This document shows, one piece after another, positions 6,317 through 28,130 of a stretch of DNA of 64,000 nt. This DNA comes from Dictyostelium discoideum (lineage: Eukaryota): assembly GCA_000004695.1 (NCBI GenBank), contig CM000152.2, forward strand, positions 1,088,001 to 1,152,000. The letters are read 5' to 3'. The notes under the pieces are model-generated. The model was given only the letters and a program-made list of their open reading frames with translations, did not search any database and was not told where the DNA came from. Positions within the stretch are counted from its first letter, which is position 1; the number at the start of each line of letters is the position of its first letter. The translations under genes were made by a program, and so were the position numbers.

Positions 6317-7126
6317 ATGATTAAATCATTAAGAATTGGATTATTAAAATGTGATTCGTTTATACCAGATATTAAAAATAAATTTGGAGACATTGATAGT
6401 CAATTTAAGAATTTATTAAATAGTAATACTAAATCAATGAATATTGATTTATCAGTATTTGAAGTTGCAAATGATCAATTCCCAAGTAAAGAAGATTGTT
6501 TAGATAAACAAAAATTTCAAGGATTTATAATTAGTGGTAGTAAAAGTTCAGTGAATGATGATAAAGATTGGATAAAGAAATTAAAAGAATATATTCAATT
6601 CTTTTCAGAGAATAATGTTAAAACCATTGGTGTTTGTTTTGGACATCAAGCGATTGCAACAGCATTAGGTGGAAAAGTATCATATAATCCAAAAGGTTGG
6701 ACTGTTTCAGATTATAAAATTAATTATATCAATGATTCAAATTTTCATAAAGAAAATCCATTAGTTTTTAATGATATAATTAAACAATCACCACCACAGC
6801 AACAACAACAACAAGAACAACAACCACCTCCATATTTAAATATAATTTGTATAAATAAAGAAATTGTAACAGAAATACCAAAAGATTTTAAAATTTTTGC
6901 AAAAAATGAAAGATCTGATAATCAAGCAATGTATTTTAAAAATCAATTCTATTCTTTTCAAGGTCATCCAGAATATACACCAGAATTAATTAAAGCAACA
7001 ATCTTATCAAGAAGAGGAATTATCCCTGATGAAATTATTGATGATGGTATTAACAGAGCAAATAATTCAAATATTGATAGATCAGCTTTTGCAAATGGAA
7101 TGATTGATTTCTTTATTGAAAAATAA
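6317..7126 (+). CDS. Class-I glutamine amidotransferase-like (GATase1 domain) protein, 269 aa.
   Basis: The motif KTIGVCFGHQAIATALGG (catalytic Cys-Gly-His-Gln nucleophile-elbow context) and the C-terminal GHPEYT (His-Pro-Glu) are typical of the GATase1 family. A (CAA)n-encoded poly-Q insert is present. Confidence 0.6.
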   Translation: MIKSLRIGLLKCDSFIPDIKNKFGDIDSQFKNLLNSNTKSMNIDLSVFEVANDQFPSKEDCLDKQKFQGFIISGSKSSVNDDKDWIKKLKEYIQFFSENNVKTIGVCFGHQAIATALGGKVSYNPKGWTVSDYKINYINDSNFHKENPLVFNDIIKQSPPQQQQQQEQQPPPYLNIICINKEIVTEIPKDFKIFAKNERSDNQAMYFKNQFYSFQGHPEYTPELIKATILSRRGIIPDEIIDDGINRANNSNIDRSAFANGMIDFFIEK

Positions 7127-7237
7127 AAATAAAAAAAAATAAAAAATAAAAAATACTATTTATAAATTATTAAATATTAATTTTTTTACAATTTAAATAT
7201 TCTTTATTTATTTATTTTATTTTATTATTTTTTTATT

Positions 7238-8776
7238 TTATAAATTAATTGGAGTTAATTTTATAAATTTATTTCTATTTAAATTAATTGGTTTTATCAT
7301 TATTGTTGATAATAAAAACCAAAATACAGCAATTGTGAAAGCAATTGTATAACCAAGTACTTTACTTCCAAAGGAATTAATTACTAAACCAGATATGGCT
7401 GGAGCTATAACTTGTGGGAAAATTAAAGCTTGATGCCAAAGACTTAAATCCTTTGCTACATTTTCTTGTGGTAATACATCCAAGGCAAGAGCATAATCTA
7501 CACCCTGATAACAACCATAGCCAACACCAAATAATCCACTAAATAATAACACTAATTTCAATGATGGTATAAATGATAAAACTATGAAACCACAAGTAAT
7601 CAATGTCATAATTGTGCAACTTATATATACCAATAGCTTTCTACCATATTTGTCAGACAAAGGACCACCAATGATTGCACTTGGTATACTTGTTATAATA
7701 ATCAATGAAAGTATTGCAGAGGTGTACAATTCTTTACTAGTTGGATCTATATGAATGATATCGGTTAAATAGTATCCAAAGAATGGTAATATACTATAAA
7801 CACCCATCTCTTGCATAAATCTTGTAATTATCACCCAATAGAAATCTTTATATGTCGAACTTGGTAAATAGAATGAATAGACGAATCGTTTGAATGTGAT
7901 TTTCTCCACATGATTTGGCGATAGCGGTGTCTCATGTATGTGAATTAGTGTGGGGAATACCAACACACCCAAAATTAAAACTAAAAAACTATATGTCGCA
8001 ATGTACGATTTAGTATAATGAATTAGCAATGCCGTGCCAACTACACCAATTAATTGACCAATTGCATTGGAAAACGCTAAATAGCCCGAAGCAACGCCAT
8101 ATTTTGATTTGGGCACTATGTCCGGCATCAGCCCGTTGAATGGCGACGTGCCCCACATTATACCAAACTGAATTCCCATTAGGAACAACATAAACGCATA
8201 TATATTCTTGGTTGTGCCTGTCAGGAAGAGTGATATCATCGCTACGACACTCCCCGACGCAATGAATATTCTCCTCCTTCCAAATCTATTAGTGCAATGA
8301 TCTGACAGAAACCCACTTAAAGGTCCTACTATAATCGATGTGATTGCTCCTAATATTGGTAAAAGTCCAACATATTTCTCTTTATTTTCTTCACCGCCTA
8401 TTGACGCAATTTGGCTCGGCCATACCAATGATATTAGTCCACCCATAATCGCTGATGTTGCTAACCAATAAGATGATAAACATAAATAAAATATTACACC
8501 TTTTATACCTTTAGGTGGTTCTTTAATTCTTTCATTACCTTCACCACCAACACCACCATTTGAAAATATTAAATCTCCATCATCATCGTCATCAAAACTA
8601 TTATCTAATTGTTTAAATTTAAATGGTTTATCTTGAATATTTTCTTCTTCACATCTACCATCATCTTCATATATTAATTCACTATCTATTGAAAATATAT
8701 TATTATTATTGTTATCGTTACTATTTTCTATAATTAATGAAGAATTAGAATTTGCCAATTCATGGTATTTATCCAT
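7238..8776 (-). CDS. Major facilitator superfamily (MFS) transporter, 512 aa.
   Basis: There are 11-12 predicted hydrophobic helices. The MFS loop 2-3 signature is present (GPLSGFLSDHCTNRFGRRRIF), with a second G-x-L-x-D-x-x-G-R-K-like motif at GGPLSDKYGRKLL. The N-terminal tail is acidic and N-rich. Confidence 0.65.
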   Translation of the reverse strand: MDKYHELANSNSSLIIENSNDNNNNNIFSIDSELIYEDDGRCEEENIQDKPFKFKQLDNSFDDDDDGDLIFSNGGVGGEGNERIKEPPKGIKGVIFYLCLSSYWLATSAIMGGLISLVWPSQIASIGGEENKEKYVGLLPILGAITSIIVGPLSGFLSDHCTNRFGRRRIFIASGSVVAMISLFLTGTTKNIYAFMLFLMGIQFGIMWGTSPFNGLMPDIVPKSKYGVASGYLAFSNAIGQLIGVVGTALLIHYTKSYIATYSFLVLILGVLVFPTLIHIHETPLSPNHVEKITFKRFVYSFYLPSSTYKDFYWVIITRFMQEMGVYSILPFFGYYLTDIIHIDPTSKELYTSAILSLIIITSIPSAIIGGPLSDKYGRKLLVYISCTIMTLITCGFIVLSFIPSLKLVLLFSGLFGVGYGCYQGVDYALALDVLPQENVAKDLSLWHQALIFPQVIAPAISGLVINSFGSKVLGYTIAFTIAVFWFLLSTIMIKPINLNRNKFIKLTPINL

Positions 8777-9385
8777 AGTATAGTTTTTTTTTAATTATTA
8801 AATGATTAACCGTTTTTATTCATATAAATATATATATATTATTTTTATGAAATTTTTTATTTTTATAAAAAAAAAAAAATTAACAAAAAAAAAAAAAAAA
8901 AAAAAAAGAATGAAAAAGTTAGTAATAAATTTTTTTTTTTTTTTTAAAAATTTAAAAAAAAAATAATTAAAAAAATAAAAATTTTAAAAATATCTTTTTT
9001 AAAATCTTTTTTTTTTTTTTATTGTTTTTTTTAAAATATATATATAACAATGAATAATTAATTAATTATACAAACATTATTTTGGTATTCAAGATTGAAT
9101 GAAAATATCTTTAAAATTAAATTTTAATGATTTCAGACTTTTCTTTTTTTTTTTTTTTTTTATTGTTTAATTTATTTGAAAACAGTTGCACACTTATTTT
9201 TGATTTTATTTTTTTTTTTTTTGTTTTTTTAATCATTTTTTTTTTTTTTTATTCGGGGTGTGTTTTTTTTTTATTTTTTTTTATTTTCGAATCTGATTAA
9301 ACCAAAAATAAAAATAAAAATAATAAATAATAAATAATAAATAATAAATAATAAATAATAAATAATAAATAATTAATAATTTAAA

Positions 9386-12170: not shown

Positions 12171-12545
12171 TAGTTTGTTGTGTTTTTTAGAAATCGGTTG
12201 GTATTTTAAAATTAAATTAATTGATCAAATGATACTAGACTCTGAATACAATAATGTTAGCATGTTGAATTTAATTATTTAATTATTTAATTATTTAATC
12301 TCATAAAATATAAAAACTTAAAAAAAACATATTTTTACTCGATTTTTAAAAATGATGGTTAACTTACATAAATAATTTAATTTTAAAAAAATACAGTTGA
12401 CAATGGTTTTCTTCCTGTAGAATGATAATTTGCTGTAAGGTCAACTTCAATGTTTAACACATTTAAAAAAAGATAAAAAAAAATAAATTATTTAGGAAAT
12501 ATTAAATAAAAAATTACTTTGTGGGATAGTTTCAAAAAAAAAAAT
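12171..12545 (+). repeat. Unit B copy 1 (about 370 bp).
   Basis: tagtttgttg..attaattgatcaaatgatactagactctgaatacaataatgttagcatgttgaattt..acagttgacaatggttttcttcctgtagaatgataatttgctgtaaggtcaacttcaatgtttaacacatt..ttgtgggatagtttc. It realigns with 12873..13200 at roughly 80% identity. Confidence 0.75.
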
Positions 12546-12705
12546 AAAAAAAAAAAAATATTTTTTTATATTATTAAATTACCAAAAAAATGGCCATTTT
12601 TTTTTTAAGTTATTTTTTCAATCAATAACTACAAAACTAGTACCTTTGTTGAATCAAAAAATTAGAAGAGGGGCTGGAGATATTAATAATAAATAAAAAA
12701 AAAAA

Positions 12706-12800
12706 AAAAAGACAATCTGATAACTGAAATGACTTTTTTTTTTTTATAATGGCAATGGCAGAGGAAATAGTAATAGTAATGGTGTTACATCCCATTTATA
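12706..12800 (+). repeat. Fragment homologous to the 3' part of unit A (A').
   Basis: gacaatctgataactgaaatgac-T-run-ataatggcaatggcagaggaaatagtaatagtaatggtgttacatcccatttataaaaa compares with ctcgatctgataactgaaatgtc-T-run-aataatgccaatggcaatgaaaattgtaatggtgttaaatccctatttacaaaaa in copy 1. Confidence 0.7.
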
Positions 12801-12872
12801 AAAAAAATAAAAATAAAAAAAAAAATAAAAAAAAAAATTATTCAAATAATTGAAAAATGTATAATCAAAAAA

Positions 12873-13200
12873 TAGTTTGTTGTTTTATTTAAAATTAAAT
12901 AAATTGGTCAAGTGAGACTAGATTCTGGAATACAGTAATGTTTACACGTTGAATTTTATTTAATATTAAAAAACAAAAAAAACATATATATTTGCTCAAG
13001 ATTTTTAAAACCCTAGGTAATGATGGTTATCCCAAATAAATAATTAAAAAAAAAGACAGTTGACGGAGGTTTTCTTAGAATGAAGGAACTGTAAGATTTG
13101 CTGTAAGGTCAACTTAAATGTTTTACACATTAAATAAAAGATTAAAAAAATTAATTATTTAAGAAATTTTAAATAAAAAATAATTTTGTGGGATAGTGCC
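12873..13200 (+). repeat. Unit B copy 2.
   Basis: See unit B copy 1. It ends ..aaaaaataattttgtgggatagtgcc. Confidence 0.75.
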
Positions 13201-13582
13201 AATAAAAAAAAAAAAAAAAAAAAAATTTGCTTGGATTAATTTTTTTTTTATTTTTTTATTTTAACAAAATACCCACAATTTAGAAACACTGTTAAATATT
13301 TATTTTAATTTTATTTTGGTATAAACTGGTTTAATTGTTTAAAACATAGGCATAAAAGCAAATTCTTTTTTTAGCCATATAAAAATTCTCACTTTTAACA
13401 AAGTCCCACATTTTGAATTTATTGTGAATTTTCTTGTTTAATTATCAAAAAAATAATTGGCAATTTTTTTTTTTTTTTTTTTCAACAACCCATTTTTCCC
13501 ATCATTAATTACAAACTTACCTTTTATTAATCAAAAAATTAGATGGCTGAGAATATTATTAATAGAAAAAAAAAAAAAAAAA

Positions 13583-13740
13583 AAGACAGCTGACGAAGGA
13601 TTTCTTTGGAATGTAGAGTGATAGAATTGCTGTAAGGTCAGCTTAATTGCTTTGTGATTACTTTCACATTTCAAGATAAAATTCAAAAATTGTTTTTTTT
13701 CAGAAATTAAAAACCAAAAAATAATTTGTGGGATTGATTT
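13583..13740 (+). repeat. Unit B partial copy 3 (the 3' half only).
   Basis: agacagctgacgaaggatttctttggaatgtagagtgatagaattgctgtaaggtcagcttaattgctt..ataatttgtgggattgattt. It shares the gttgac(g)g..ttgctgtaaggtca(a/g)ctt..tgtgggat core with the other B units. Confidence 0.65.
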
Positions 13741-13855
13741 TAAACAAAATTTAATTCTTAAAAAATTACCAAATATTCTATTTTTAAACTTTTTTTTTAT
13801 TATTTTTGTTCTTTTTCTCAAATTTTTTTTCTTTTTTTTTTTTTTTATTTCAGAC

Positions 13856-14300
13856 TCCCACAAAAAGTTTTGGTGTACTCAAAATTTCATTTTAAACATA
13901 ATTTTTAATATACTTCTGATGGGCATATCAGGACATCGAGTTTAACACCTATTCAGACTCCAGAATACAAATTAATTTGAGCGGCAACGTTCATATCAAT
14001 CTGCACTTTCAAATCGTTAGATGAATGATTGAAAAATCAAACCTCTGGTGGTTTAAAAAAATGCTGAGAAGTAACAGCATTAAAAAAAACATTTAGACCA
14101 TAGTTGAGAGTCTAAAAATCCAACCAGTTAGTAGCGACTAAAAATCTACAAAACCATAAACTCGATCCGATACCTGAAATGTCTTTTTTTTTTTTTTTTT
14201 AAATAATGCCAATGACAATGAAAATAGTAATCGGTTAAATCCCGATAAACAAAAACAAAAACAGAAATATATTTACAAAAACCTACTTGAAATAAAAGAA
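13856..14300 (+). repeat. Unit A copy 2 (direct repeat of 10300..10745), offset +3555 bp.
   Basis: It shows the same about 95-97% identity to copy 1 as seen by eye. The 5' flanks also resemble each other (cccataaaaggttttaatcg versus cccacaaaaagttttggtg). Confidence 0.85.
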
Positions 14301-14830
14301 GTTTAAAAAAAAGAAAAATAAAAATTATTTAATTTTATTATTTTATTATTTTATAATCTTATAAAATTTATAATATATCCATTATGCCAAAAATTTAAAT
14401 CTAGATCTAGCAAATGATTAATTAATATCTTAAACTATTGTTTTTTTTTATTTTTTTTTATTTTTAATAAATGAAAATAAAAAAAAAAAAAAAATACATA
14501 TTTTTTTTTATTTAAAAATCTATTTTTTATAAATTTATTCCCACTAGTTCCAAAATAAAAAAAATAATTACAAAAAATTAATAATATAATATATATTTGA
14601 ATTCTAAAAATAAAATTTTTGATTAAAAAGAAAAAAAAAAAACAAAAAAAAAATTCAAAAAATATTTTTTTTTTATTTTTTATTTTTTTTTTTTTCAAAA
14701 AATATTCATTATGTGATATTTGTATATCGCTTCTTATCATTCTTTCATTCATTATTTTCATATGTTTAGTTAATTATTTTTTTTAAAAAAAGGAAAAGTA
14801 AATAATTCAAAAAAAAAAGAAAAACTAAAA

Positions 14831-15518
14831 ATGCAAGTTCAACCAAAATATTTTGAAAAATCTCAATATATTGAAACATTAAATGGTAATAAAGTTAGTA
14901 AATCATCAATATTATGTGGTATTATGAATATTAGATTACATGGTAAAACTATAATTAAACCTGGTGTTATTGTTAGAGGTGATTTAGCATCAGTAAATAT
15001 AGGTAGATTATCAATAATATCAGAGAATACAGTAATTAGACCATCATCAAAGAAATTTAAAGGTTCATTAGTTTATTTCCCTCAAAACATTGGTGATCAT
15101 GTTTTAGTTGGTGAAGGTTGTGTAATTAGTGCAGCTTCAATAGGTTCAAATGTTTATATTGGTAATAATTGTATAATTGTAAAGTTATCAATACACCCCC
15201 CACCTATCACTTATTTATTTTACTATTATAATAGTATATACTAATAAATTTTAAAATTAATAATAATAGTCAAAAAGATGTATATTAAAAGATTGTTGTA
15301 TTATTGCAGATAATACAATTTTACCACCAGATACAGTTGTACCACCATTTACATATTATTCTGGTACACCTGGTGTTTATAAAGAAGATTTACCAGATTG
15401 TATAGAACAATTTCAAAAAGAATATACTACTTCACTTTATGAATCATTTTTACCAAATACACCAGCATCAAAAGGTTTACCTTCAACTCCTACTAAATTA
15501 CAAACTACGACAACATAA
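14831..15518 (+). CDS. Dynactin subunit 5 (p25), 2 exons (14831..15178, 15270..15518), 198 aa.
   Basis: Exon 1 has the left-handed beta-helix hexapeptide repeats and strong p25 identity: GNKVSKSSILCGIMNIRLHGKTIIKPGVIVRGDLASVNIGRLSIISENTVIRPSSKKFKGSLVYFPQNIGDHVLVGEGCVISAASIGSNVYIGNNCII. After ATT|gtaaag..aataatag|TCA, exon 2 gives SKRCILKDCCIIADNTILPPDTVVPPFTYYSGTPG.., which matches the p25 consensus (G)[34 protein letters not shown]. The track ORF 14831..15244 reads into the intron. Confidence 0.8.
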
Positions 15519-15614
15519 ACAAAGAAATGTTCATTTTTAAAATAAAATATATATATAAAACTAATAAAAGAAAAACTATGACAACATAAACAAAGAAATG
15601 ATCATTTTTAAAAT
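15505..15614 (+). repeat. Two 39-bp near-identical copies (15505..15543 and 15576..15614) that duplicate the stop codon and proximal 3'UTR of the p25 gene.
   Basis: ctacgacaacataaacaaagaaatgttcatttttaaaat versus ctatgacaacataaacaaagaaatgatcatttttaaaat, with 2 mismatches and copy starts 71 bp apart. Confidence 0.8.
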
Positions 15615-15724
15615 ATAAAAAAAAAAAAAGCAAGATGTAATAAAGAAGTTTTTTTTTTTTTTTTTTATTTATATTTACACACAAGAATAACACTAGTATT
15701 ATTCTTTAAATTTATTAAATTGTT

Positions 15725-15859
15725 TTATTTTTTATCCATTTCGTCTTTTGGTTGGTCTTGTACCTTTTGTTCTTGTTGGTCTTGTGCCTTTTGTTCTTGT
15801 TGATTTTGTTGAGCTGTTATTCGGTTAAGAGTTTCAAGTTCTTCTTGTTGAGAAGGTAT

Positions 15860-15932
<73 letters not shown>

Positions 15933-16653
15933 GGTGGTGGTGTTTGTTGATGTTGTTGAGGAGATGGCGTTTGTTGAGGTTGTTGAGGAGATGGCGTTTG
16001 TTCTTGATCTTTAGGTTGAGATGGTAGTATTTGTTGAGGAACATTTTGATTATTTTGGTATGGATGAAGGGGGTATTGATGACCATAATGTTGTGGACCA
16101 TAAATAGGAGAGTGATGAAAATGTGGAGAATATGGGTAGGGTTGATGTTGATTAGGATGAATTGGTTGATTTGGATGAATTGGTTGGTTTGGATGAATTG
16201 GTTGGTTTGGGTGAATTGGTTGGTTTGGATGGTTTGAATGAATTGGTTGGTTTGGGTGAATTGGCTGGTTTGGATTTATTGATTGGTTTGGATGATCTGG
16301 GAGATTTGGTTGAATTGGTTGATTTGGTTGAATTGGTTGATTTGGTTGAATTGGTTGATTTGGTTGATTTGGTTGGAGAGGGTGATATGGATATGGTGGA
16401 TGTTGGCTNNNNNNNNNNNNNNNNNNNNNNNNNNNNNNNNNNNNNNNNNNNNNNNNNNNNNNNNNNNNNNNNNNNNNNNNNNNNNNNNNNNNNNNNNNNN
16501 NNNNNNNNCAATTGGAGGGGATTGAATTTGTTGGTTGTTTGGTTGATCTTGTAATTGATGGAATTCATTTTGAATATGTGGATCTTGTAATTTATGGAAT
16601 TCATTTTGAATTTGTGGATCTTGTAATTGATGGAATTCATTCTGAACAACAAG

Positions 16654-16709
<56 letters not shown>

Positions 16710-17650
16710 CATGATTTTGTTCATGATTTTGTTTGTTATTTTGATCATGGTTTTTATGATTGTCTTGATTTTGGTCATGAACTTTATCATGAATTTGGAT
16801 ATTTTGGTCCTGAATATGATGATTTTGTCCTTGATCTTTTTGTTGTTTATGATCAGTATGATTTAATATTTGGTCATGATTATCGTTATTAATATGTTGA
16901 ACATGATTGTTGTTTGAATTATTTTGTTGATTATGATTATGATTATGATTATGGCTATGATTGTGATTATGATTATGATTATGATTATTATTATTATTAT
17001 GATGATGATGATGTGGTTGTTGTGATATTTTACGATTTGTTGGTGTTGTTGTTGTTGTTGTTGGTGTTGTTGTTGTTATTGGTGTTGAAGAAGAAGAGGA
17101 AGATACAGATAAAGATGCTGGATTAAATTTGTGAGATTTTTTAGATAGAAATTCTTTATCAATTCTTCTCATTACAGCAAAAGCTAAAAGTGTTGGTGGA
17201 TAATCAGTTTTTGGGAGAAATTTTTGAGGTAAACATTTTGATTTCGAATGAAATATATAAATATATTCAACGACCAAATCATTGATTGAAGGAAGTGTCA
17301 AGAATGGATTAGAGACAGTGAGTACATCAACACTATTTGAAAGTGAATAAAGTAAATTTGAAAAGCCTTCTTTATCTTGACTATTTGAATTCTCTAATAT
17401 CAACATTGAAGTATCACGAATTGTATGATTCATTTTTTCAATCTCTTCAAGATGTCTTAAAACAAGATGATTTGGTCTTCTTTGATAAAAACTTTTATGC
17501 GGAATTCTATGATGTTCCAAATTAATCCAATTACTACCACCAATATAATATCCATTAAACATAAAAGATTTTGGATCATCTTCTTTTTCACTCTTAAATA
17601 TAAGATTATTCCAAATTGGATTTTTACCAATTATTTCACTAATTGTTAAA

Positions 17651-17693
<43 letters not shown>

Positions 17694-17904
17694 CGCTGTT
17701 ACTATTAATTCCATTAGCTTTATTATTAATTAACTCTGTATTGATATTTTTATTTTCATCATTATTAATATTGTTTCCATTCTCTTTTAATAAATTAGTA
17801 TTTGCTGTTGTTGTTGATGTTGTTGTAGCTGGTGGTGGTGGTGATGGTGGAATTGGAGTTATTGATGGTGTTGTTGTATTTGTTATATTTGATGTAAGAT
17901 TATT

Positions 17905-17946
<42 letters not shown>

Positions 17947-18107
17947 AATATTATCAGGAGGTCTATAGTGATCATCATCATATGGTGCTAAAAATTCATC
18001 TTCATAATCTCTATTTGTATCTCCATCGTCATCATGATACTTATCAAGGCTACTTGTATTATCTACAAAGGAGGTATCAATTGGAATAAGGTTACCACTT
18101 TTTTTAA

Positions 18108-18179
<72 letters not shown>

Positions 18180-18523
18180 CTTTTGAATATTCATAATCCA
18201 ATCTAGTATAGTTGAAATTATTATCAATGTTGTTGCTATTAATAATATGACTTCTGAAATCATTAATTCTACCATCACTACCACCATTAAAATCAGAATA
18301 ATCATCTTTCTTTTTAATTTTGATCATTTCAGCATAATCATCTATTGGTGAACGATTTAATAAATCATTGAAATTATCTCCAATTTTTAAATCTAACGAA
18401 TTCATCCCACTGTTGGTTGGAGAACTAGTAGTATTATTTGGTTGAAGTTGTATCTCACCTTTATGAGTTTTTTTATAATATGTTGTATCCTTTGGTAATA
18501 TACTACCTTTAACTGCCTAAATT

Positions 18524-18559
<36 letters not shown>

Positions 18560-19106
18560 ATATTAATTTCTATCGATAAAAATTAGTAATAAAATAAAAG
18601 TAAAATAATATATAATAATTACCATTTCCTCCAATTCTCTTCTTTCTTCAGCTCTTTCTTTAGTTGCTAAATCTTGAATATCAAAATTTTTTAATTCTTC
18701 TGGTGTAACTTTCTTTGTTATAATTCTTTCTTTTAAACTTGGATTATTTTTAATATTATATTCAATACTTCTAACTCTGAATTATTTTATTTTATAAATG
18801 TTAGTATTATTCATTATTTTTATTAATTTTTATTATTAATTTTTACCTTTCTTTATATTTTCTTTTATCTAAACTATAAAAATGATTAAATAATTCAGTT
18901 TCAATTTCTTTTGCAATTACTTTAATTTCTTCATATAAATGACATGATCCAATTAATAATGCTTTGTTAATTAAATTGAAAGCACCTCTTCTTTCTTTTT
19001 CACATTGTTCGTTATCATCTTGTATAGTAGATGTAGTATTAGTAGTAGTAGTAGTTGTTGCTGTGGATGATGATGATGATGATAATGCTGATGATGATGA
19101 TAATGC

Positions 19107-19144
<38 letters not shown>

Positions 19145-20338
19145 TATTACTATTAGTATAATTAAAGGAATATAAACTATCTTTTTTTTGAGATGGTGTA
19201 TTATTTGCTGATGTTGATGGTGTAGGTGTTGCTGATGAAGGTAAAATTGAAGTTTGGGTTTGTACTGATGATGAAGATGATGATGACAATGATAAAGAAT
19301 TAACTTTATCATTTTTTAATTTTTGAGAATTTGAAAGTATTTTTGTATCATCCAATGATTTCTTTGAATGATTAATACCATTATTAGTATTTGTTGATAA
19401 ATGTTCTTTTGATGGCGATATATCGTATAAATTTTTAGATTGCTTTAATCTTTTTAAACCTTCTTTTTTTATTCTCTCTTCTTCTTCACTATCGTCATAA
19501 TGTGAATAAGTTAAATCTACATTAATTGGATCATCACCATTTCTTGATGGTGATTCATCTCTTCTATAATCTTCTTTTTTCCTTTTTTTATCTTTACTAC
19601 TACTGCTACCACTACTACTACTACTGTGTGAACTAAATTTACTTCTTTTGCTACTACTACTACTACTGCTACCACTACTACCTCTACTACTACTATGTGA
19701 ACTTCTTTTTTTAAATTCAATTGGATCACTAAATAATAATTTAAAATTTTTTTTATTCTTTTCTTTATTTCCATCTCTTTCTCTATCTTTTTCTCTTTCT
19801 CTTTCTCTTTCTCTATCTGTTTCCCTTTCTCTATCTCTATATCTATCTCTATCTTTTTCTCTATCTTTTCCAACTCTTTTAGTATGTGATGATGATGATG
19901 AAGATGATAATGATGAAGATAATGATGAAGTAGAAGAAGAAGAAGAGGAAATTTTATTTGAGGAATGAGATGAATTAGATTGATGAATTTTAGGAGAACC
20001 TTTTTTTGCATATTGAGGTGGAAGTGGTGGAGGAGTATATTTTTTTACTAATGTTTTAAAATCATGTTCATGGAAACTAATAAATATATATGCTTCTTGA
20101 TCTAATGAAATCTCTGTAGTTAAAGGTAAACATGATTTACAAATGAAACCAGATAACGATTTTGAGTCTTCTTCACTCATACCTATACATTGACCATGAT
20201 ACCATTTACCACAAACATCACATAAAACCATAAATCCAAATTCTCCTTTCAAACATATACAATAAACTTCTTCTTTTTGTTGTTGTTGTTGTTGTTGCTG
20301 TTGTTGCTGCTGTTCATGGTTTAATAATGGTGATGTTG

Positions 20339-20421
<83 letters not shown>

Positions 20422-20687
20422 GGTTGTTGTGATTGTTGTTGTTGCTGTTGTTGTTGAAGTATTTCATCTTCTATTATATGTGAATATGTCGGTTGGTTAT
20501 CATCGATTAAAGGTAAGATTGGTTGAGCTACTATTGTATCTTGCTCAATAAGTGGTTGAGATATTTGGGTTTGTGGTGATTGTTGTGGTGATTGTTTATT
20601 TATAAAATTTTGTAAAATATTCGTTGGTGATCTAGGTGATATATCGATTTTCTTAGAAATATCATCAATAACATTTATTGAATCCAT
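15725..20687 (-). CDS. PHD finger - TFIIS central (TFS2M) - SPOC domain protein (Bye1/PHF3/DIDO-like transcription-elongation factor), at least 3 exons: 18847..20687, 18623..18776, 15725..18516. The last exon is interrupted by the assembly gap 16409..16508 and is about 1600 aa or more.
   Basis: Exon 1 begins MDSINV.., contains a PHD finger (CICLKGEFGFMVLCDVCGKWYHGQCIGMSEEDSKSLSGFICKSC), and runs to ..GAFNLINKALLIGSCHLYEEIKVIAKEIETELFNHFYSLDKRKYKE (TFIIS-M start). After AG|gtaaaa..ttcag|A, exon 2 reads RVRSIEYNIKNNPSLKERIITKKVTPEELKNFDIQDLATKERAEERRELEEM (TFIIS-M consensus). After ATG|gtaatt..aatttag, exon 3 is in frame with the 709-aa track ORF and contains a SPOC-like block (..LTVSNPFLTLPSINDLVVEYIYIFHSKSKCLPQKFLPKTDYPPTLLAFAVMRR..). 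3' of the gap only the P/Q/H-rich frame (QPIHPNQPIHPN..QPYPYSPHFHHSPIYGPQHYGHQYPLHPYQ..polyQ..DEMDKK*) stays open to a stop at 15725. The frame offset across the gap is an artefact of the arbitrary 100-N spacer. Confidence 0.7.
16409..16508. other. Assembly gap (100 N) inside a (CAA/CCA/ATT)-rich coding repeat.
   Basis: This is a run of exactly 100 n. The flanking sequence consists of degenerate 18-bp repeats (ccaattcatccaaaccaa..), which explains the collapse. Confidence 0.98.
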
Positions 20688-20884
20688 TCTATAATATATA
20701 TATAGAATTATTTAAAATAACTATTAGAATCTATATTATTATTATTTTAAATATTATTTATTTATTATAATTTATTATTATTTATTTATTATTATTTATT
20801 ATTATTATTTATTATTATTTATTATTTTTTTTTATGTTTTTGTAGATAATAGATATTTTATTTAATATTGTGTTATTGTTAAAT

Positions 20885-20920
20885 GGTGTGAGTGTGTGAG
20901 TGGTGGGTATGTGTACAATA
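20885..20920. promoter_or_regulatory. GT-rich (CA-rich on the coding strand) element about 200 bp upstream of the PHD-TFIIS-SPOC gene start; candidate G-box/CAE-type (GBF-like) site.
   Basis: ggtgtgagtgtgtgagtggtgggtatgtgtac is embedded in otherwise A/T DNA. Dictyostelium G-box binding factor sites are (T/G)G(T/G)G(T/G)G half-site pairs; that is established knowledge. Function here is an inference. Confidence 0.25.
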
Positions 20921-21139
20921 AAAAACCTTTTTAAATTCATTTGTTTTGTTTTGTTTTTACCTTTTTTTTTTTTTTATTTTTTATTTTTTATTTTTTTTCT
21001 ATTTTTTTTTTTTTAATTTTCAAATTATTTTGGGAGTTCCAAAAAATCAACTGCCAAATAAAAAAAAAAAAAAAAAAAAAAAGAATTCCAAATCCACCTT
21101 TTTTTTTATTTTCATATTACCATTAGAGATTTGAGGAAG

Positions 21140-21177
<38 letters not shown>

Positions 21178-21529
21178 AATAAAATAAAAAAAAATTAAAA
21201 GGAAAATTTTCCGAATATAAACTTTTTTTTTGGTAAATTAATTAAACATTTTTTATTTTTATTTTTCCGGAAAAATAAAAAGATTAATTTAAAACTTTTA
21301 AGAACTATACACTCTTTAAAGTATTTTTTTTGATTGGTAAAAAATTTATTTTTTAAAGATACTCGTAATCTTTAAAAAAAAAAAAAAAAATTTTTTTTCC
21401 TATTTTTCCACCTGTTTTTAGATAAATTATTCGCTATTTAATCTTATAAATCGTATAGGTTCTTAAAAAAAAAAGAAATTAATTAAACTTTTCCCTAAAT
21501 TATCAACAAAAAAAAAAATTCAACAAAAA

Positions 21530-21607
21530 GGGTCAATGGTATTTTACAAATCCTACAGGTTAAGAGTTCACTCGACCGTGAGGTAATCCAATGGGCGGGA
21601 TCCAGAG
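21530..21607. ncRNA. GC-rich about 78-bp island in A/T intergenic DNA; candidate small ncRNA or regulatory element of unknown class.
   Basis: gggtcaatggtattttacaaatcctacaggttaagagttcactcgaccgtgaggtaatccaatgggcgggatccagag is roughly 47% GC against a background below 15%. It lies 185 bp upstream of the DUF829 gene. No tRNA cloverleaf, C/D or H/ACA boxes, or U-snRNA fold could be fitted by eye. Confidence 0.2.
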
Positions 21608-21793
21608 AATTAATTTTAATTTCCTTAAAATAAAATAATAACTAATAAATAAAATAAAAATAAAATGAAAATAGTATAAAATAAATAAATGAATAGTTCT
21701 TTAATTTTTTTAAAATTATAAAATAAAAAAAAAAAAATAGTTAAACTAAATAATAATTTCTATAGTTTAAAGTAAAAAAAAAAAAAAAAAAAA

Positions 21794-22546
21794 ATGTTAG
21801 GAAATAAATTTTATCCTTCTGATAATAATCCAGAAACTGACCCTTTATTAATTTTATTTGGTTTTGTTGGTTCAAATGAAAGAGTAATGAATAAATATAG
21901 AGAATGTTGGAAAGGTTTTAATATTTTTCTTTTTACACCTCCATGTGATATGACAATTTATTTAATGAGAGTTGGTTGTAGAAAGTTCAATAAGGAATTA
22001 AACAAATATTTTAAAAATAATCCAAATGCAAGTAAAATCATTTATATTCATGGTTTAAGTATTGGTGCAAGTTTTGTGTCTGGTTTTTTAAAACAATTGG
22101 AATTATATAAAAATGGTAAATTTTGTTATATTTTACCATATATAAAAGGGATTGTAATGGATTCAGGTCTCGTTCTCACTCATAATGATGCAATTACTGG
22201 TTTTAAAAGTGCAATAAGAGCTCAAATTGGTACATTTGGTAATGTAATTCAACATGTAGTACCAATGTTTAAACCATTTATTAAATATTTTTGCAAACAT
22301 GATGTACCTTATCTTTTCAAGAATAACTATCATTTTTTGGTTATTTACAGCCCATGTGATCAATATTTCCCAGGTGCAAGTGAAAATTTAATTACTAGAT
22401 TAAATGATACTGACAGAATATCAAATAATAATGATAGAATTATAGTAGAAAAGAAATTTTATTCAAAACATATTGAACATTTAAAAAGCAATAAAACAGA
22501 ATATATTGATTCAATAATTAATTTTATTAATATTACAAATAAATAA
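21794..22546 (+). CDS. DUF829/TMEM53-like alpha/beta-hydrolase-fold protein, paralogue 1, 250 aa.
   Basis: The N-terminal PLLILFGFVGSNERVMNKYRECWKGFNIFLFTPPCDM matches the DUF829 start (PLVILLGWxGxxxKxLxKY). A GLSIGA nucleophile-elbow-like motif is present. It shares about 45% identity over the full length with 23389..24144. Confidence 0.6.
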   Translation: MLGNKFYPSDNNPETDPLLILFGFVGSNERVMNKYRECWKGFNIFLFTPPCDMTIYLMRVGCRKFNKELNKYFKNNPNASKIIYIHGLSIGASFVSGFLKQLELYKNGKFCYILPYIKGIVMDSGLVLTHNDAITGFKSAIRAQIGTFGNVIQHVVPMFKPFIKYFCKHDVPYLFKNNYHFLVIYSPCDQYFPGASENLITRLNDTDRISNNNDRIIVEKKFYSKHIEHLKSNKTEYIDSIINFINITNK

Positions 22547-23388
22547 AATATTAAAGATTATTTTAATTAAAATTTTTTTTTCATTACTTTATAATTCACT
22601 GGTCCAACAATCTAAAAAAACTGTAACACTTTTAGATTTATTTTTTTTTAAAAATTTAATAAGGAGCTTGTGTACTTAAATTTTTTTTTTTTTTTTTTTT
22701 TTTTTTCACATTAATAAAAACTATAAGAGAAGAGGATTTAATTGGTATTTTCAAAAATAATAATGAATGAGAATTTACATAATTTATTATTACCAAAAAA
22801 TTTAAAAAAGTGTTGGAATTCTTTTGGAAATTAATACGTTATTTTTTTTGTTTGACAGTTGTCATAATGATTTTAAATTCTAATCTAATTAAGATATTTT
22901 TTTTTTTTTTTTTTTTTTTTTCAATAAATATTAATTCTTATATAATTTAATTATATTGAATTTTTTTCCTTGTCTTTTATTGGTCCATACTTTAGATATT
23001 TTTAAAACTAAATATTCGAACCATTAAAATTTAAATTTTTATAAAGGGGGGAATGGAAATTTATTGTTTTATAGATTTCCAATATTAAATTTTTAAATGT
23101 GTGGTAATATAAACTATATCCAATGTATATTTATTATATTTATTAATAAAAATAAAAACTACTTCTATTACCATTTTAAGGAACAATAAAATTATTTTTT
23201 TTTTATAAAAAATTTAAATATTTTAATTTTTAGTAATTTTCTTTTTTTTTTTTTTTTTTACAATTCATAAATATATAAATTTACATTTTATTTATTTTTT
23301 CAATTGTATTCCCAATTACCAATAATTATTTAAAACGAAATTTTTTTTTTTTTTTGTACATGTTTTTTAAGTGAATAGGAAATTAAAA

Positions 23389-24144
23389 ATGAAAATTTAT
23401 TCAATTAAATACTACCCATGTGAAAATGAATCAACTTCCCCTTTGTTAGTTTTATTTGGTTTTATTGGTTCAACAGAGAAAATTCTTGATAAGTATAAAA
23501 GTATTTGGAAAGGGTTTAATATTTTGGTATTTACTCCTCCATGTGATATGACAGTAATTTTAATGAGAATTTGTTCAAAAAAAGTTATAAGAAAAATCCA
23601 TAATTTCTTTCAAATTCACCCCAATGCTCCAAAATCATTATATATTCAAGGACTAAGTGTTGGTGCATGTTTTGTTCCTGGTCATTTAAAACAATATGAA
23701 AATGAAAAATATGCTTACCTATTATCTTATATCGATGGAATAGTTTTAGATTCTGGTTTATCAGTGGATACAAGAGATGCAATAACAGGTTTCAAGTGTG
23801 CCATGAGAACTCAAATCGGTTTACTCGGAGTTTTGATTCAACATTTTGTACCTCTATTCAAACCATTTATTGAAGAATATTGTAGAAATGATGTACCATG
23901 TATTTATAAAAATGGTTATAATTTTTTAATAATCTACAGTGATTGTGATACTTACTTTCCTGGAGCAAGTAAAAAATTAATTGAAAGGATACATGATACT
24001 GATTTAAGGATTGGAGCTCAACCAAATAAAAGAATATTACATGAAGTAAAGTTTGATTCAAATCATATCGAACACTTGAAAACTCATAAACAAGAATATA
24101 CACAAGCATTAACACTATTCATTTCAAAAACTCAATCAAATTAA
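23389..24144 (+). CDS. DUF829/TMEM53-like protein, paralogue 2 (tandem duplicate, same strand), about 251 aa from ATG 23389.
   Basis: It begins MKIYSIKYYPCENESTSPLLVLFGFIGSTEKILDKYKSIWKGFNILVFTPPCDM. GLSVGA and the C-terminal NHIEHLK..EY are conserved with paralogue 1. The track start at 23371 is a GTG; the first ATG is 23389. Confidence 0.6.
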   Translation: MKIYSIKYYPCENESTSPLLVLFGFIGSTEKILDKYKSIWKGFNILVFTPPCDMTVILMRICSKKVIRKIHNFFQIHPNAPKSLYIQGLSVGACFVPGHLKQYENEKYAYLLSYIDGIVLDSGLSVDTRDAITGFKCAMRTQIGLLGVLIQHFVPLFKPFIEEYCRNDVPCIYKNGYNFLIIYSDCDTYFPGASKKLIERIHDTDLRIGAQPNKRILHEVKFDSNHIEHLKTHKQEYTQALTLFISKTQSN

Positions 24145-24296
24145 AAAGCAAACTTTAAATATAGAAAAAGAAATTTCTAAAAATATTTATATATAAAATC
24201 CCAACAATCACCCATTTTTTAATTGATTAAATCAATTTTTAATTAAAAAATTTCTTCAAAATAAAAAAAAAAAAAACAATAAAATATTTGTGTTTA

Positions 24297-24730
24297 TTTT
24301 TTTTTTTTTTTTTTTTTTTTTGAAAGGTTAAGACTAAAAATTTAGTTGATAATTATACTGGTTAAATAGGTATTTTTTTTATAAGATTTTCATAAAGTCT
24401 AAGCAATTTTAAAGATCCTAACGGCTTCAATAAAAAATAATTAAGAAAATCAAAGTACAAGGTTAATTTTATTACTTCCAAAAAGAGTCCATCTACAAAT
24501 TTACTTAATTAATAATTTGGTTTTTAAATATATTATAGAGTGGATAATCTATTTTTTTTGACTTTTCAGAATTTCTAACCGATTTGTGTGGGGATTGCAT
24601 GTATTTGGAGGATATCCATCTCCAATTGTGTGGGTTTTTAAACGAGCCATGTTAATTAGTTACTAATGAGCTCTGCAAGTTGGATTTTGCTTATACAAAT
24701 AAAATTCCTTCTAGTATTGATAATCCAGTA
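24297..24730 (-). mobile_element. Possible 5'-truncated non-LTR retrotransposon 3' end (TRE3-like placement downstream of a tRNA gene), ending in an A(25) tail that appears as T25 on the plus strand.
   Basis: This is about 410 bp of non-A/T-monotonous sequence beginning about 40 nt downstream of tRNA-Lys and ending in the 25-nt homopolymer 24297..24321. tRNA-downstream targeting by TRE3 elements is established; identity of this fragment is an inference, and homopolymer runs are common in this genome. Confidence 0.25.
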
Positions 24731-24742
24731 GGAGTCGAACAC
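24731..24742 (-). promoter_or_regulatory. ex-B box (extra B-box, GTGTTCGACTCC) about 31 nt downstream of the tRNA-Lys 3' end.
   Basis: On the minus strand it reads AGTGTTCGACTCC, matching the B-box consensus GGTTCGANTCC. Extra B boxes about 20-40 nt downstream of tRNA genes are a known feature of Dictyostelium. Confidence 0.55.
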
Positions 24743-24772
24743 TTGATCTATTTAATATTTTTGAAAAATTTT

Positions 24773-24845
24773 CGCCCAAAGGGGGGCTCGAACCCCCGAC
24801 CACAAGGTTAAAAGCCTTGCGCTCTACCGACTGAGCTATCTGGGC
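24773..24845 (-). tRNA. tRNA-Lys(UUU): tRNA-Lys (anticodon UUU), 73 nt, no intron; CCA is not encoded.
   Basis: Minus strand: GCCCAGA TA GCTC AGTCGGT AGAGC G CAAGG CTTTTAA CCTTG TGGTC GGGGG TTCGAGC CCCCC TTTGGGC G. The 7-bp acceptor stem includes one G-U pair. The A box is TAGCTCAGTCGG and the B box is GGTTCGAGCC. The anticodon loop is CTTTTAA, giving anticodon TTT. Confidence 0.9.
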
Positions 24846-25092
24846 ATTTTATATTTTTCATAAAATTATTAGTAAAAAAAATTAGTTATAATATTTTCTT
24901 GGGGAATTTTATTTTTTAAAAGAAACATAAAAATAATTTATAATTTTAAATAATTTAATTAAATTTCCTAAATTAAATAAATATTAATAACCAAAAATAA
25001 TAAAGTAGCTATAGTTTTTAATTGTATTTATTATTTTTATTTTTTTTTAATTTTTTTTTTTTAATTTTCATTTTTCATAAAAACGAATAACA

Positions 25093-25429
25093 ATGATGAT
25101 GAAAAATAAAATTCTATTAACCACAACATTTTGTAATAATATTAATTTTTCAAATAAATACTATTATTCTTCATTTAAAGGTAAAAAGAAAAATGATTAT
25201 CCAAATAAAAATAATAATAAAACCAAAGAGAGAGTAGAATTAGAAAATCAATTTAAAGAACATAATGAAATAATAACTGAACAAAAAGAAAATCTACAAA
25301 AAGATTTTGAAATTTATAATGTCCTAAATAAAGAAAAAGATTTATTTAAATCAATGTCAAGATTAAAAAATAAACCAACAAATTCACCTTCTACTACTAC
25401 TACTGCAACAACAACTTCAAATATTAATC

Positions 25430-25467
<38 letters not shown>

Positions 25468-26781
25468 AATAATTCAATGAAAAAAAAAACTCAATTAATG
25501 AGAGATTTTATTCAAGAATCATTATATAATAAAGATTATGGATATTTTCAAACTAAAGAAGTTATTATACCATCAGATATTGAAATACCAAAATTAAATT
25601 CACTTGGAAATTTTAAAGAATATACAAACTATTTACATTATATTTATAAAAGTTTAGAACATGCATGGCTTACACCTGTTGAAATTTTTAAACCTTATTA
25701 TTCTTGGAGTATTTCAAATTATATAATTGAGAAATTTAAACAAATTCAAATTAAAAATTCTGATTCAAAATTGAAAATCTATGAAATTGGTGCAGGATCT
25801 GGTACAAATGCATTGAATATTTTAAATCATATTCGTGATAATCATAAAGAAATCTATGAGAATATGGAGTATAAAATCATTGAAATTTCAAAACCATTAG
25901 CTCAAAAACAGTTGACAAGAATTAAACAATCTCATCCTAAACTAAATATAAATATCACCAATGCAAACATTTTAGAATGGAATCAAGCTGAAGAAAAAGA
26001 TGAATGTTTTATAATCCTAACTGAAGTAATAGATAATTTACCACATGATAAAATTACTATCACTTCCAATGGGATCTTTGAATCGATAGTAGATAGCACA
26101 GTTTTTGAAACTGTTAAAGGAAAAGACAACATAATTCAAAAGAAACAAATCTCTGGCTTCCATTGCGAAGACTCCAGACCGCTAACCGACCCTATCATAA
26201 AGGAGTATTTAGAATACGAGAAATCCATGGATTCCAACTCCCTTTCCTCATTCATAAATAATATAATCAATTTCTACAAGGTCAATATTAAATCATTTTT
26301 CAAAGGTGACGAAACTAAATACCTTCCAACAGTGTGTTTTAAACTGTTTCAAATTTTCGCCTACTATTTCCCCAAGCATCATATTATTTTAGCGGATTTC
26401 GATGAACTACCATCATTGGTATCCGGTGAGAATGCACCAACGGTTCAAGAGAAAATACCAATTACAACTGGTAAAATCGATAATCCATATCATATTCTTG
26501 GTACAAATAAACATGGTTATGAATCGATTGAAAGAGATGAAATTTTAGTTCAACCTGGAACTTGTGATATCTTTTTCCCACATGATTGGAAAAATCTTCA
26601 TAATATGTATTGTTATACAAATAAAGATCGTCCAAATTTTCAATCATCTCAAGTTACATCTTTAAAACATAAAAGTTTTATTAAAAAATATGCTTCTGAA
26701 TATTTAGATAAAACTAAAACAAAATCAGGTTATAATCCAATGATAAGTGATTATTCAAATATGTCATTTTTATTATCTTAA
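25093..26781 (+). CDS. SAM-dependent methyltransferase of the NDUFAF7/MidA (DUF185) family, putative protein-arginine methyltransferase, 562 aa.
   Basis: Motif I reads LKIYEIGAGSGTNALNIL (compare ELGPGRGTLxxDIL in NDUFAF7). The acidic post-I strand is YKIIEISKPLAQKQ (compare LVEVSxxLxxxQ). ECFIILTEVIDNLPHD matches the ANEFFDALP family hallmark. ILADFDELP matches ALVADYGH. The N-terminal 150 aa is N/K/S-rich with a possible mitochondrial presequence. Confidence 0.55.
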
Positions 26782-26917
26782 AAAAAAAATTAAAAAATAA
26801 ATTTAAAAATAAAAAAATAAATAAAAAAAAAAAGATTTTATATAAATAAATATACATTTTATTTTATTTTATTTCTATTTATTTATTTAATTTGATTTTT
26901 TATTTTATTTATTATTA

Positions 26918-26964
<47 letters not shown>

Positions 26965-26991
26965 TACTATTTCTACTACTTATTATTTATT

Positions 26992-27132
26992 TTAAGATTG
27001 AGGTGGTGTAAATTGATGATTTTGGGGTGATTGTACATTTTGATTACCGCATTGTAATGATGGGTGTTGTTGTTGTAAAGGTGATGAATTGCTATTATTG
27101 TAATTACCATTTATTTGTTTTTTATTGTTACC

Positions 27133-27163
<31 letters not shown>

Positions 27164-27164
27164 C

Positions 27165-27197
<33 letters not shown>

Positions 27198-27459
27198 ATT
27201 TAAATTTATTATACATGTCATAATTTTCCTCTGGTGATAAAGCATCATGGAAAATCATTAATCCATTATTTATGTTTGTTTGTTGTTGTAATTCCAATTC
27301 ACATGGATCACTATCTTCCAATGAATCATCAGATATTGGGTCATCCTGACTTTGAGCATATTTTATATAGTTGCCCGTTCTTGGTGAATCTATATCATCA
27401 CTATTTAAAAGTGGTGAATCTGATGACCCAATATTATTATTATTACTACTTCCGTTGCT

Positions 27460-27516
<57 letters not shown>

Positions 27517-27712
27517 ATTATTATTATTATTTTGGCTATTATTTTGATTACCATTTGTATTGTTACAATTATTTCCTTGTGGCTCCTCATATATATGTCT
27601 TTTTTTTCTTGAATCATTTAAGAAATTACTATTTGTATTATTATTACTATTATTATTATTGCTGCTGCTGTTGTTGCTTGCCCTTTGGAAAGTATTTCCA
27701 TTTCCATTATTA

Positions 27713-27801
<89 letters not shown>

Positions 27802-28090: not shown

Positions 28091-28130
<40 letters not shown>

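What the first reader, a model, noticed from the sequence alone, without database searches (positions are those of the whole stretch)
15725..18516. PHD-TFIIS-SPOC gene spans an assembly gap: frame break and triple-open repeat frames
Upstream of the 100-N gap the exon is in one frame (..QQIQSPPI). Downstream the only frame that runs to a stop (15725) is shifted by +1 (QPIHPNQPIHPN..). The two frames with Met-initiated track ORFs (ending 16152 and 16276) are probably alternative-frame artefacts of the 18-bp ccaattcatccaaaccaa repeat, since all three frames are open for about 300 bp. The true length of the collapsed repeat and the real C-terminus are therefore unknown. The overall PHD / TFIIS-M / SPOC architecture (Bye1/PHF3-like) is split across two short introns that the ORF track cannot show.
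Basis: partly seen in the sequence, partly recalled or inferred. Interest (0 to 1): 0.5.

Follow-up and report, generated by a model that had tools for sequence, protein, structure and literature searches.

The report
Known gene interrupted by assembly gap
A Dictyostelium discoideum gene for a Bye1/PHF3-like transcription regulator is interrupted by a 100-N placeholder gap, and a gapless public assembly shows 611 real bases there that restore one 1765-codon reading frame, so the "frame break" is an assembly artefact.

Summary
A 100-N run (16409..16508) interrupts exon 3 of a three-exon minus-strand gene (20687..15725) in D. discoideum AX4 chromosome 3. The reading frame differs by one base on the two sides of the gap. 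All three minus-strand frames are open over 286 bp, of which 186 are real bases.

The frame break is an artefact. 100 N is a placeholder for unknown length, and the flanks require a gap of 3n+2 bases. A gapless D. discoideum assembly (GCA_054883475.1) matches both flanks at 99.7-99.9% identity and has 611 bp (3n+2) in place of the Ns. A D. cf. discoideum ortholog (1819 aa) keeps the same frame, and all 20 indels in the last 2.4 kb are multiples of 3.

The hidden sequence is not extra copies of the 18-bp QPIHPN repeat. It carries other P/H/Q-rich repeats and a unique segment.

PHD (E 1e-8) and TFIIS_M (E 6e-19) are confirmed, as are both introns. SPOC is not detected by Pfam and has only weak profile-profile support.

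This is an ordinary, already resolved case of low interest.

The parts
18847..20687 (-). Exon 1 (ATG at 20687..20685), with poly-Q tracts, the PHD finger, Ser/Arg-rich low-complexity sequence and the first part of the TFIIS_M domain
   Evidence: ORF. Donor AAAGAAAG|GTAAAA located. Spliced model. Same start as the gene called on the gapless assembly.
20130..20261 (-). PHD finger (aa 143-186)
   Evidence: Pfam PF00628, E 1.1e-8, 35.4 bits against a cutoff of 24. PDB hits to the H3K4me3-reader PHDs of CFP1, PHF2, DIDO1 and BPTF, E 7e-11 to 6e-8. Translation checked.
18777..18846 (-). Intron 1, 70 nt, GT..AG, 8.6% GC
   Evidence: The intron at the same position in D. cf. discoideum is 155 nt.
18623..18776 (-). 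Exon 2 (154 nt), the middle of the TFIIS_M domain
18517..18622 (-). Intron 2, 106 nt, GT..AG, 8.5% GC, with a 29-T run
   Evidence: The same intron is 101 nt in the gapless D. discoideum assembly and 97 nt in D. cf. discoideum.
18508..19001 (-). TFIIS central (TFIIS-like, TLD) domain, aa 563-668, spanning both introns
   Evidence: Pfam PF07500, E 6.1e-19, 69 bits, profile positions 3-112 of 114. Best PDB match is PHF3 domain 2dme_A, E 8.9e-8, ahead of TFIIS itself.
16509..18516 (-). Exon 3, the part above the gap
   Evidence: Identical at protein level to the first 1334 aa of the gap-closed protein.
17164..17622 (-). Conserved globular region (aa 964-1116), a candidate divergent SPOC domain
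   Evidence: In 150 codons compared with D. cf. discoideum there are 127 identical, 9 synonymous and 14 nonsynonymous differences. No Pfam hit. hhalign P 0.019-0.058, collinear with PHF3 and Bye1 SPOC. A single-sequence AlphaFold model was unusable, pLDDT 36.8.
16545..16646 (-). 36-bp tandem repeat x2.8 (QNEFHQLQDPQI), just above the gap
   Evidence: TRF.
16409..16508 (.). Assembly gap of 100 N, a placeholder. A gapless assembly has 611 bp here, encoding 204 aa.
15725..16408 (-). Exon 3, the part below the gap, 227 codons plus the TAA stop at 15727..15725
   Evidence: Collinear with L001 1..4116 at 99.88% identity. The stop coincides with the end of the gene called on L001.
16147..16385 (-). 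18-bp (9-bp sub-period) tandem array encoding QPIHPN/QPIQPN. It ends 23 bp before the gap.
   Evidence: TRF. Pattern search.

Best explanation
The window is D. discoideum AX4 chromosome 3. A single three-exon gene on the minus strand (20687..15725) encodes a PHD / TFIIS-like-domain protein of the Bye1/PHF3/DIDO kind, with a long Q/P/H/N-rich C-terminal tail. The reference assembly failed inside that tail and inserted the conventional 100-N marker for a gap of unknown length. Because 100 is 3n+1 while the missing sequence is 3n+2 (611 bp in a gapless assembly), the two halves of exon 3 appear to be in different frames.

There is no biological frameshift, no extra intron and no second gene. The real product is about 1765 aa and ends ...KDEMDKK at 15725. 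The additional open frames are a by-product of an almost G-free, T-poor repeat that cannot form stop codons in any frame of that strand.

Shown here: gap length, frame restoration, conservation of the frame in a sister species, and the PHD and TFIIS_M domains. Inferred: that AX4 itself has the same or a 3n-different fill; that the protein docks on RNA polymerase II through its TLD as Bye1 and PHF3 do; and that the conserved region at aa 964-1116 is a divergent SPOC domain.
For: -: there is one N run of exactly 100 bases, and the flanks need a gap of 3n+2.
- the neighbouring gene led to GCA_054883475.1, record CM142509.1. Window 12293..16408 matches L001 1..4116 at 99.88% identity, and 16509..32564 matches L001 4728..20753 at 99.72%.
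- the 611 intervening bases (611 mod 3 = 2) join the two halves into one 5298-nt CDS of 1765 aa. This equals the 1765-residue gene called over the same range (L001 3433..8901).
- the upstream 1334 aa are identical and the downstream 227 aa differ at 2 residues.
- the D. cf. discoideum ortholog (1819 aa, 84% identity) reads through the equivalent region in the same frame.
- all 20 indels in a free DNA alignment of the last 2.4 kb are multiples of 3. The fill shows 171 identical, 21 synonymous and 12 nonsynonymous codons.
- the fill is 45.8% GC, against 8.5% for the introns.
- PHD E 1e-8 and TFIIS_M E 6e-19.
- the neighbours are DDB_G0278743, DDB_G0278747 and DDB_G0278751 of D. discoideum AX4.
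Against: - The gapless assembly is a different assembly, probably of another laboratory strain, and not AX4 itself. AX4's own fill length is therefore not directly observed, and repeat copy number could differ.
- No transcript data were available to exclude splicing within the tail.
- The exact 1765-aa sequence was not found in the protein collection, so identity with the deposited annotation rests on equal length and coordinates only.
Confidence: 0.93

Rival explanations
1. The gap hides a collapsed array of the 18-bp QPIHPN repeat. On this reading only the copy number is unknown.
For: The 18-bp array (11 copies) lies close to the gap, and repeats are a common cause of assembly failure.
Against: In the gapless assembly the array (L001 3855..4093, equal to window 16147..16385) ends 23 bp before the gap edge. 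The 611-bp fill holds different repeats (12-bp x11.8, 30-bp x4.7, 27-bp x2.2) and a unique SNRSSSERNSAEPNETANSEIQ segment. The same organisation is present in D. cf. discoideum.
Confidence: 0.03
2. An additional intron, or a boundary between two separate genes, lies within or next to the gap, so the downstream 227 codons do not belong to a continuous exon 3.
For: No cDNA was available, and the downstream piece has no domain hit.
Against: The ORF is uninterrupted through the fill. The fill is 45.8% GC, against about 8.5% in the gene's real introns. All 20 indels relative to the sister species are multiples of 3, and synonymous changes exceed nonsynonymous changes in the fill. The annotation of both gapless assemblies calls one gene across it.
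Confidence: 0.03
3. AX4 carries a genuine frameshift, making the gene a pseudogene or truncated allele, and the gap merely masks it.
For: Four of the five mismatches in the 4.1-kb block below the gap lie within 144 bp of the gap edge. AX4 may therefore differ locally.
Against: Those differences are substitutions and not indels. The 100-N length carries no information. Both flanks are otherwise identical in protein sequence to the intact allele.
Confidence: 0.01

Closest known systems
Bye1 (S. cerevisiae) / PHF3, DIDO1 (mammals) / PPS (Drosophila): the PHD-TLD-SPOC family of RNA polymerase II regulators
   Same: - The N-terminal PHD finger resembles H3K4me3-reader PHDs, including DIDO1 4l7x at E 3.4e-8.
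- A TFIIS central domain follows, and its best solved relative is PHF3 (2dme, E 8.9e-8).
- There is no TFIIS C-terminal zinc ribbon.
- A conserved domain of about 150 aa follows the TLD and aligns collinearly, though weakly, with the PHF3 and Bye1 SPOC domains.
- According to PMC12139180 and PMC10111866, this order of domains defines the family.
   Different: - SPOC is not recognised by Pfam, whereas the Bye1 SPOC scores 1.9e-19.
- In the tentative alignment the conserved Arg (PHF3 R1248) and one Lys (K1267, here Arg) are matched. R1297, K1309 and Y1291 are not (residues from PMC8526623).
- About 300 aa of low-complexity linker separate the TLD from the candidate SPOC, instead of the short spacer described in PMC12139180.
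- A 630-aa tail (25% Q, 20% P, 13% H, 11% N) follows.
100-N 'unknown length' gap in draft or reference assemblies (GenBank/AGP convention; my own knowledge)
   Same: The run is exactly 100 N. The flanks are collinear with a gapless assembly that has a different length (611 bp) at that place.
   Different: Nothing. This is a textbook case.

Membership tests
Bye1/PHF3/DIDO (PHD-TLD-SPOC) family | PHD finger N-terminal to the TLD | tested here: met
   Pfam PF00628, E 1.1e-8, 35.4 bits (cutoff 24), aa 143-186.
Bye1/PHF3/DIDO (PHD-TLD-SPOC) family | TFIIS central domain (TLD, Pfam TFIIS_M) | tested here: met
   PF07500, E 6.1e-19, 69 bits (cutoff 29.2), aa 563-668, profile positions 3-112 of 114. 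The closest solved chain is PHF3 2dme_A.
Bye1/PHF3/DIDO (PHD-TLD-SPOC) family | No TFIIS domain III (C-terminal zinc ribbon) | tested here: met
   No TFIIS_C hit at E<=1 in the 1334-aa model or the 1765-aa gap-closed protein.
Bye1/PHF3/DIDO (PHD-TLD-SPOC) family | SPOC domain C-terminal to the TLD | tested here: inconclusive
   - Pfam PF07744 gives no hit at E<=10 on the isolated region, although Bye1 SPOC scores 1.9e-19.
- hhalign against PDB-verified SPOC sequences gives P 0.058 (3 sequences; 12 of 200 shuffles reach it) and P 0.019 (5 sequences; 0 of 200 shuffles).
- For calibration, bona fide Bye1 gets P 1.7e-4, and control regions of the same protein get P 0.1-0.8.
- The AlphaFold single-sequence model is unusable.
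- No homologues were retrievable.
Bye1/PHF3/DIDO (PHD-TLD-SPOC) family | Binding to the RNA polymerase II jaw (TLD) and the phospho-Ser2 CTD (SPOC) | not testable with these tools
   This is a biochemical property, described in PMC8526623 and PMC10111866.
Assembly gap placeholder | Fixed-length N run whose length differs from the real sequence, with collinear flanks | tested here: met
   100 N in the window against 611 bp in GCA_054883475.1. The flanks are 99.7-99.9% identical.

The most novel reading that the evidence does not exclude
The Dictyostelium member of the PHD-TLD family carries a SPOC-like domain so divergent that standard models miss it, with only part of the phosphoserine-binding residues retained. 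It also has a selectively conserved, GC-rich H/P/Q-repeat tail, which would be an amoebozoan C-terminal extension evolved independently of the metazoan DIDO/PHF3 extensions. That tail could be a new interaction or condensate-forming module on RNA polymerase II.
Probability: 0.15. Interest if true: 0.3.

Novelty: already known. Interest (0 to 1): 0.1.

Why it matters
The main value is practical. Anyone using the AX4 reference model of this gene gets a truncated or frame-broken protein. The correct 1765-aa product, with 204 residues hidden in the gap, can be taken from the newer gapless assemblies. The case also shows that a frame change across a 100-N run carries no information. Biologically, it adds an amoebozoan PHD-TLD protein with a questionable SPOC domain to the Bye1/PHF3/DIDO family. 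That is of modest interest for the evolution of that family.

Tried and rejected
- The search for homologous proteins with the C-terminal 997 aa, and with a 398-aa query stripped of low complexity, gave nothing at E<=1e-3.
- An exhaustive HMMER search of 1.84 billion representatives with the SPOC-like region returned only 4 weak hits. These are cadherin, VWA and similar proteins, judged spurious, and there was no self hit.
- The exact 1765-aa protein is not in the cluster collection. The called genes on L001 and L013 carry no Pfam record. This family therefore seems to be absent from the protein resources.
- Synteny search through DCTN5 orthologues: the D. purpureum, P. violaceum and T. lacteum loci have no orthologue of this gene nearby.
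- A JGI metagenome scan with the SPOC-like alignment found no relative.
- phmmer of the SPOC-like region against the PDB gave only a chance FAK1 hit, E 1.1.
- The SHARP+RBM15 profile and the Bye1 SPOC query did not reach PHF3-type SPOC chains in the PDB. I therefore verified recalled PHF3, SPOCD1, Bye1, SHARP and RBM15 sequences against the PDB and used them for hhalign.
- The single-sequence AlphaFold model had pLDDT 36.8, so no fold search was run.
- I did not submit an AlphaFold job with SPOC sequences in the alignment, because that would be circular and the tool restricts inputs.

Full report
**What is in the sequence**

The window is AT-rich (23% GC) and contains a single N run, 16409..16508, of exactly 100 bases. 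The gene lies on the minus strand.
- Exon 1 runs from the ATG at 20687 to 18847.
- Intron 1 is 70 nt, GT..AG (18846..18777).
- Exon 2 is 18776..18623.
- Intron 2 is 106 nt, GT..AG (18622..18517).

Exon 3 reads ...QNEFHQLQDQPNNQQIQSPPI and leaves one base (g, 16509) before the Ns. Below the gap, the only frame that reaches a distant stop starts at 16408 (SQHPPYPYHP...QPIHPNQPIHPN...KDEMDKK) and ends with TAA at 15727..15725. The two halves join in frame only if the gap is 3n+2 bases long. 100 is 3n+1, which produces the apparent one-base shift.

The other two frames are open below the gap until 16278 and 16154. These give the ATG-started ORFs ending at 16276 and 16152. All three frames are stop-free from 16564 to 16279. 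That is 286 bp, of which 186 are real bases. Only 0.6% of 186-nt stretches of this strand are stop-free. The cause is composition: the coding strand of the repeat is 44% A, 38% C, 17% T and 1% G.

TRF sees period 9/36 in the window and period 18 in the gapless copy.

**Organism**

Neighbouring single-exon proteins are identical to D. discoideum AX4 DDB_G0278743, DDB_G0278747 and DDB_G0278751.

**Closing the gap**

An exact look-up of the neighbouring DUF829 protein returned a 6.43-Mb NCBI record, GCA_054883475.1 CM142509.1, stored here as L001. It has no Ns in this region.
- Window 12293..16408 aligns to L001 1..4116 at 99.88% identity.
- Window 16509..32564 aligns to L001 4728..20753 at 99.72% identity.
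- The 100 Ns therefore correspond to L001 4117..4727, which is 611 bp, and 611 mod 3 = 2.

With the same two introns, the L001 gene gives a 5298-nt CDS and a 1765-aa protein. This equals the 1765-residue gene called on L001 over the same range, 3433..8901. The first 1334 aa are identical to the window model. The last 227 aa differ at two residues. The hidden 204 aa read GQQMQPNNHQQ...PPPPHFGQH repeats...QQKQQPPQSPISNRSSSERNSAEPNETANSEIQ...QHPPQHPP repeats...YYPYYNYYGHPYQYPPHF.

TRF finds 12-bp x11.8, 30-bp x4.7 and 27-bp x2.2 arrays inside the fill. The 18-bp array (L001 3855..4093, equal to window 16147..16385) stops 23 bp short of the gap. The gap is therefore not a collapsed QPIHPN array. 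The fill is 45.8% GC, twice the genome average and far from the 8.5% GC of the gene's introns.

**Independent support from a sister species**

Through the adjacent dynactin-5 gene I reached D. cf. discoideum (GCA_054859235.1, L013). An orthologue of 1819 aa lies there in the same tail-to-tail arrangement.
- Its introns sit at the same positions but are 155 and 97 nt long.
- The protein is 84% identical and reads through the fill-equivalent region in the same frame.
- In an unconstrained DNA alignment of the last 2.4 to 2.65 kb of exon 3, all 20 indels are multiples of three.
- In the fill, 171 codons are identical, 21 differ synonymously and 12 nonsynonymously.

This argues against a hidden intron, a second gene or a different frame.

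A PNAS 2025 paper (PMC12745789) reports ten long-read Dictyostelium assemblies, including AX2-214 and cryptic sister species. The two assemblies used here probably come from that project, but I could not verify the accession mapping.

**Domain architecture**

Pfam on both the window model and the gap-closed protein gives PHD (aa 143-186, E 1e-8) and TFIIS_M (aa 563-668, E 6e-19, profile positions 3-112 of 114). The TFIIS_M match spans both splice junctions and so supports the introns. No TFIIS_C and no SPOC hit appears.

Against the PDB, the TFIIS_M region is closest to PHF3 (2dme, E 8.9e-8). The PHD is closest to H3K4me3-reader PHDs, including DIDO1. According to PMC12139180 and PMC10111866, PHD-TLD-SPOC is the defining architecture of the Bye1/PHF3/DIDO/PPS family.

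**The SPOC question**

Region aa 964-1116 is the best-conserved part of exon 3 between the two Dictyostelium lineages and sits where SPOC would be.
- Pfam finds nothing even at E<=10 on the isolated region, while the Bye1 SPOC scores 1.9e-19.
- I assembled PDB-verified SPOC sequences for PHF3, SPOCD1, Bye1, SHARP and RBM15.
- hhalign gives P 0.058 against the three TLD-type SPOCs, with 12 of 200 column shuffles scoring as high.
- hhalign gives P 0.019 against all five, with 0 of 200 shuffles scoring as high.
- The alignments are collinear over 75 to 101 columns.
- For calibration, Bye1 left out of the profile gets P 1.7e-4, and control segments of the same protein get P 0.1-0.8.
- In the tentative alignment the conserved Arg (PHF3 R1248) is matched by R1011 and K1267 by R1032. 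R1297, K1309 and Y1291 are not matched (residue roles from PMC8526623).

SPOC is therefore plausible but unproven. A single-sequence AlphaFold model was useless, with pLDDT 36.8. No homologues could be retrieved from any protein or metagenome resource.

**Mechanism**

Shown: the frame break and the ambiguity among three open frames are consequences of a placeholder gap and an A/C-rich repeat.

Inferred from the family (PMC10111866, PMC8526623): the protein most likely reads H3K4me3 through its PHD and occupies the TFIIS site on the Pol II jaw through its TLD without stimulating cleavage, since it has no domain III. If the SPOC-like domain is genuine, it would also contact the phosphorylated CTD. 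The 630-aa tail (25% Q, 20% P, 13% H, 11% N) is presumably disordered, and its function is unknown.

**Verdict**

It is wrong about a collapsed repeat, and SPOC is unproven. This is an ordinary assembly artefact in a member of a known protein family, so interest is low.

Noticed in passing
window 16265, 16297, 16377, 16379: Four of the five substitutions between the window and the gapless assembly in the 4.1-kb block below the gap lie within 144 bp of the gap edge. They cause two amino-acid differences (L->H, D->N). There are no differences in the 1200 bp above the gap. This suggests low-quality contig-end base calls in the reference, or local repeat polymorphism.
   Followed up: partly
L001 4117..4727 (the fill of the window gap 16409..16508): The hidden sequence is 45.8% GC in a 23% GC genome. 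Within the C-terminal tail it is the segment with the lowest share of nonsynonymous changes (171 identical, 21 synonymous, 12 nonsynonymous codons against D. cf. discoideum), compared with 54 nonsynonymous changes in each flanking tail segment.
   Followed up: partly
window 18517..18622: Intron 2 contains a 29-T homopolymer. The intron is 106 nt here, 101 nt in the gapless D. discoideum assembly and 97 nt in D. cf. discoideum, so its length varies freely. Exon indels, by contrast, are all multiples of 3.
   Followed up: yes
window 21794..22546 and 23389..24144 (+): There are two tandem DUF829 (PF05705) paralogues, DDB_G0278743 and its neighbour. They lie head-to-head with the PHD-TLD gene.
   Followed up: no
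window 24772..24846 (-): A tRNA-Lys(UUU) gene lies between the second DUF829 gene and the NDUFAF7-like methyltransferase gene.
   Followed up: no
L014 (D. purpureum), L015 (P. violaceum), L016 (T. lacteum): The tail-to-tail adjacency of dynactin-5 and the PHD-TLD gene is kept in D. cf. discoideum. It is absent from the dynactin-5 loci of the three more distant dictyostelids, where tblastn with the PHD, TLD and SPOC-like regions found nothing.
   Followed up: yes
protein resources: Neither this protein nor any orthologue could be found in the 5.8-billion or 1.84-billion protein libraries. The called genes on L001 and L013 have no Pfam record, although PHD and TFIIS_M hit clearly. The family seems to be missing from those resources.
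   Followed up: partly
window 26992..28434 (-): There is another long Q/H/P/N-rich ORF of 480 aa, with QNPQH repeats and several overlapping open alternative frames (27234..28562 +, 27618..28277 -). This is the same multi-frame-open artefact of low-complexity coding sequence.
   Followed up: no
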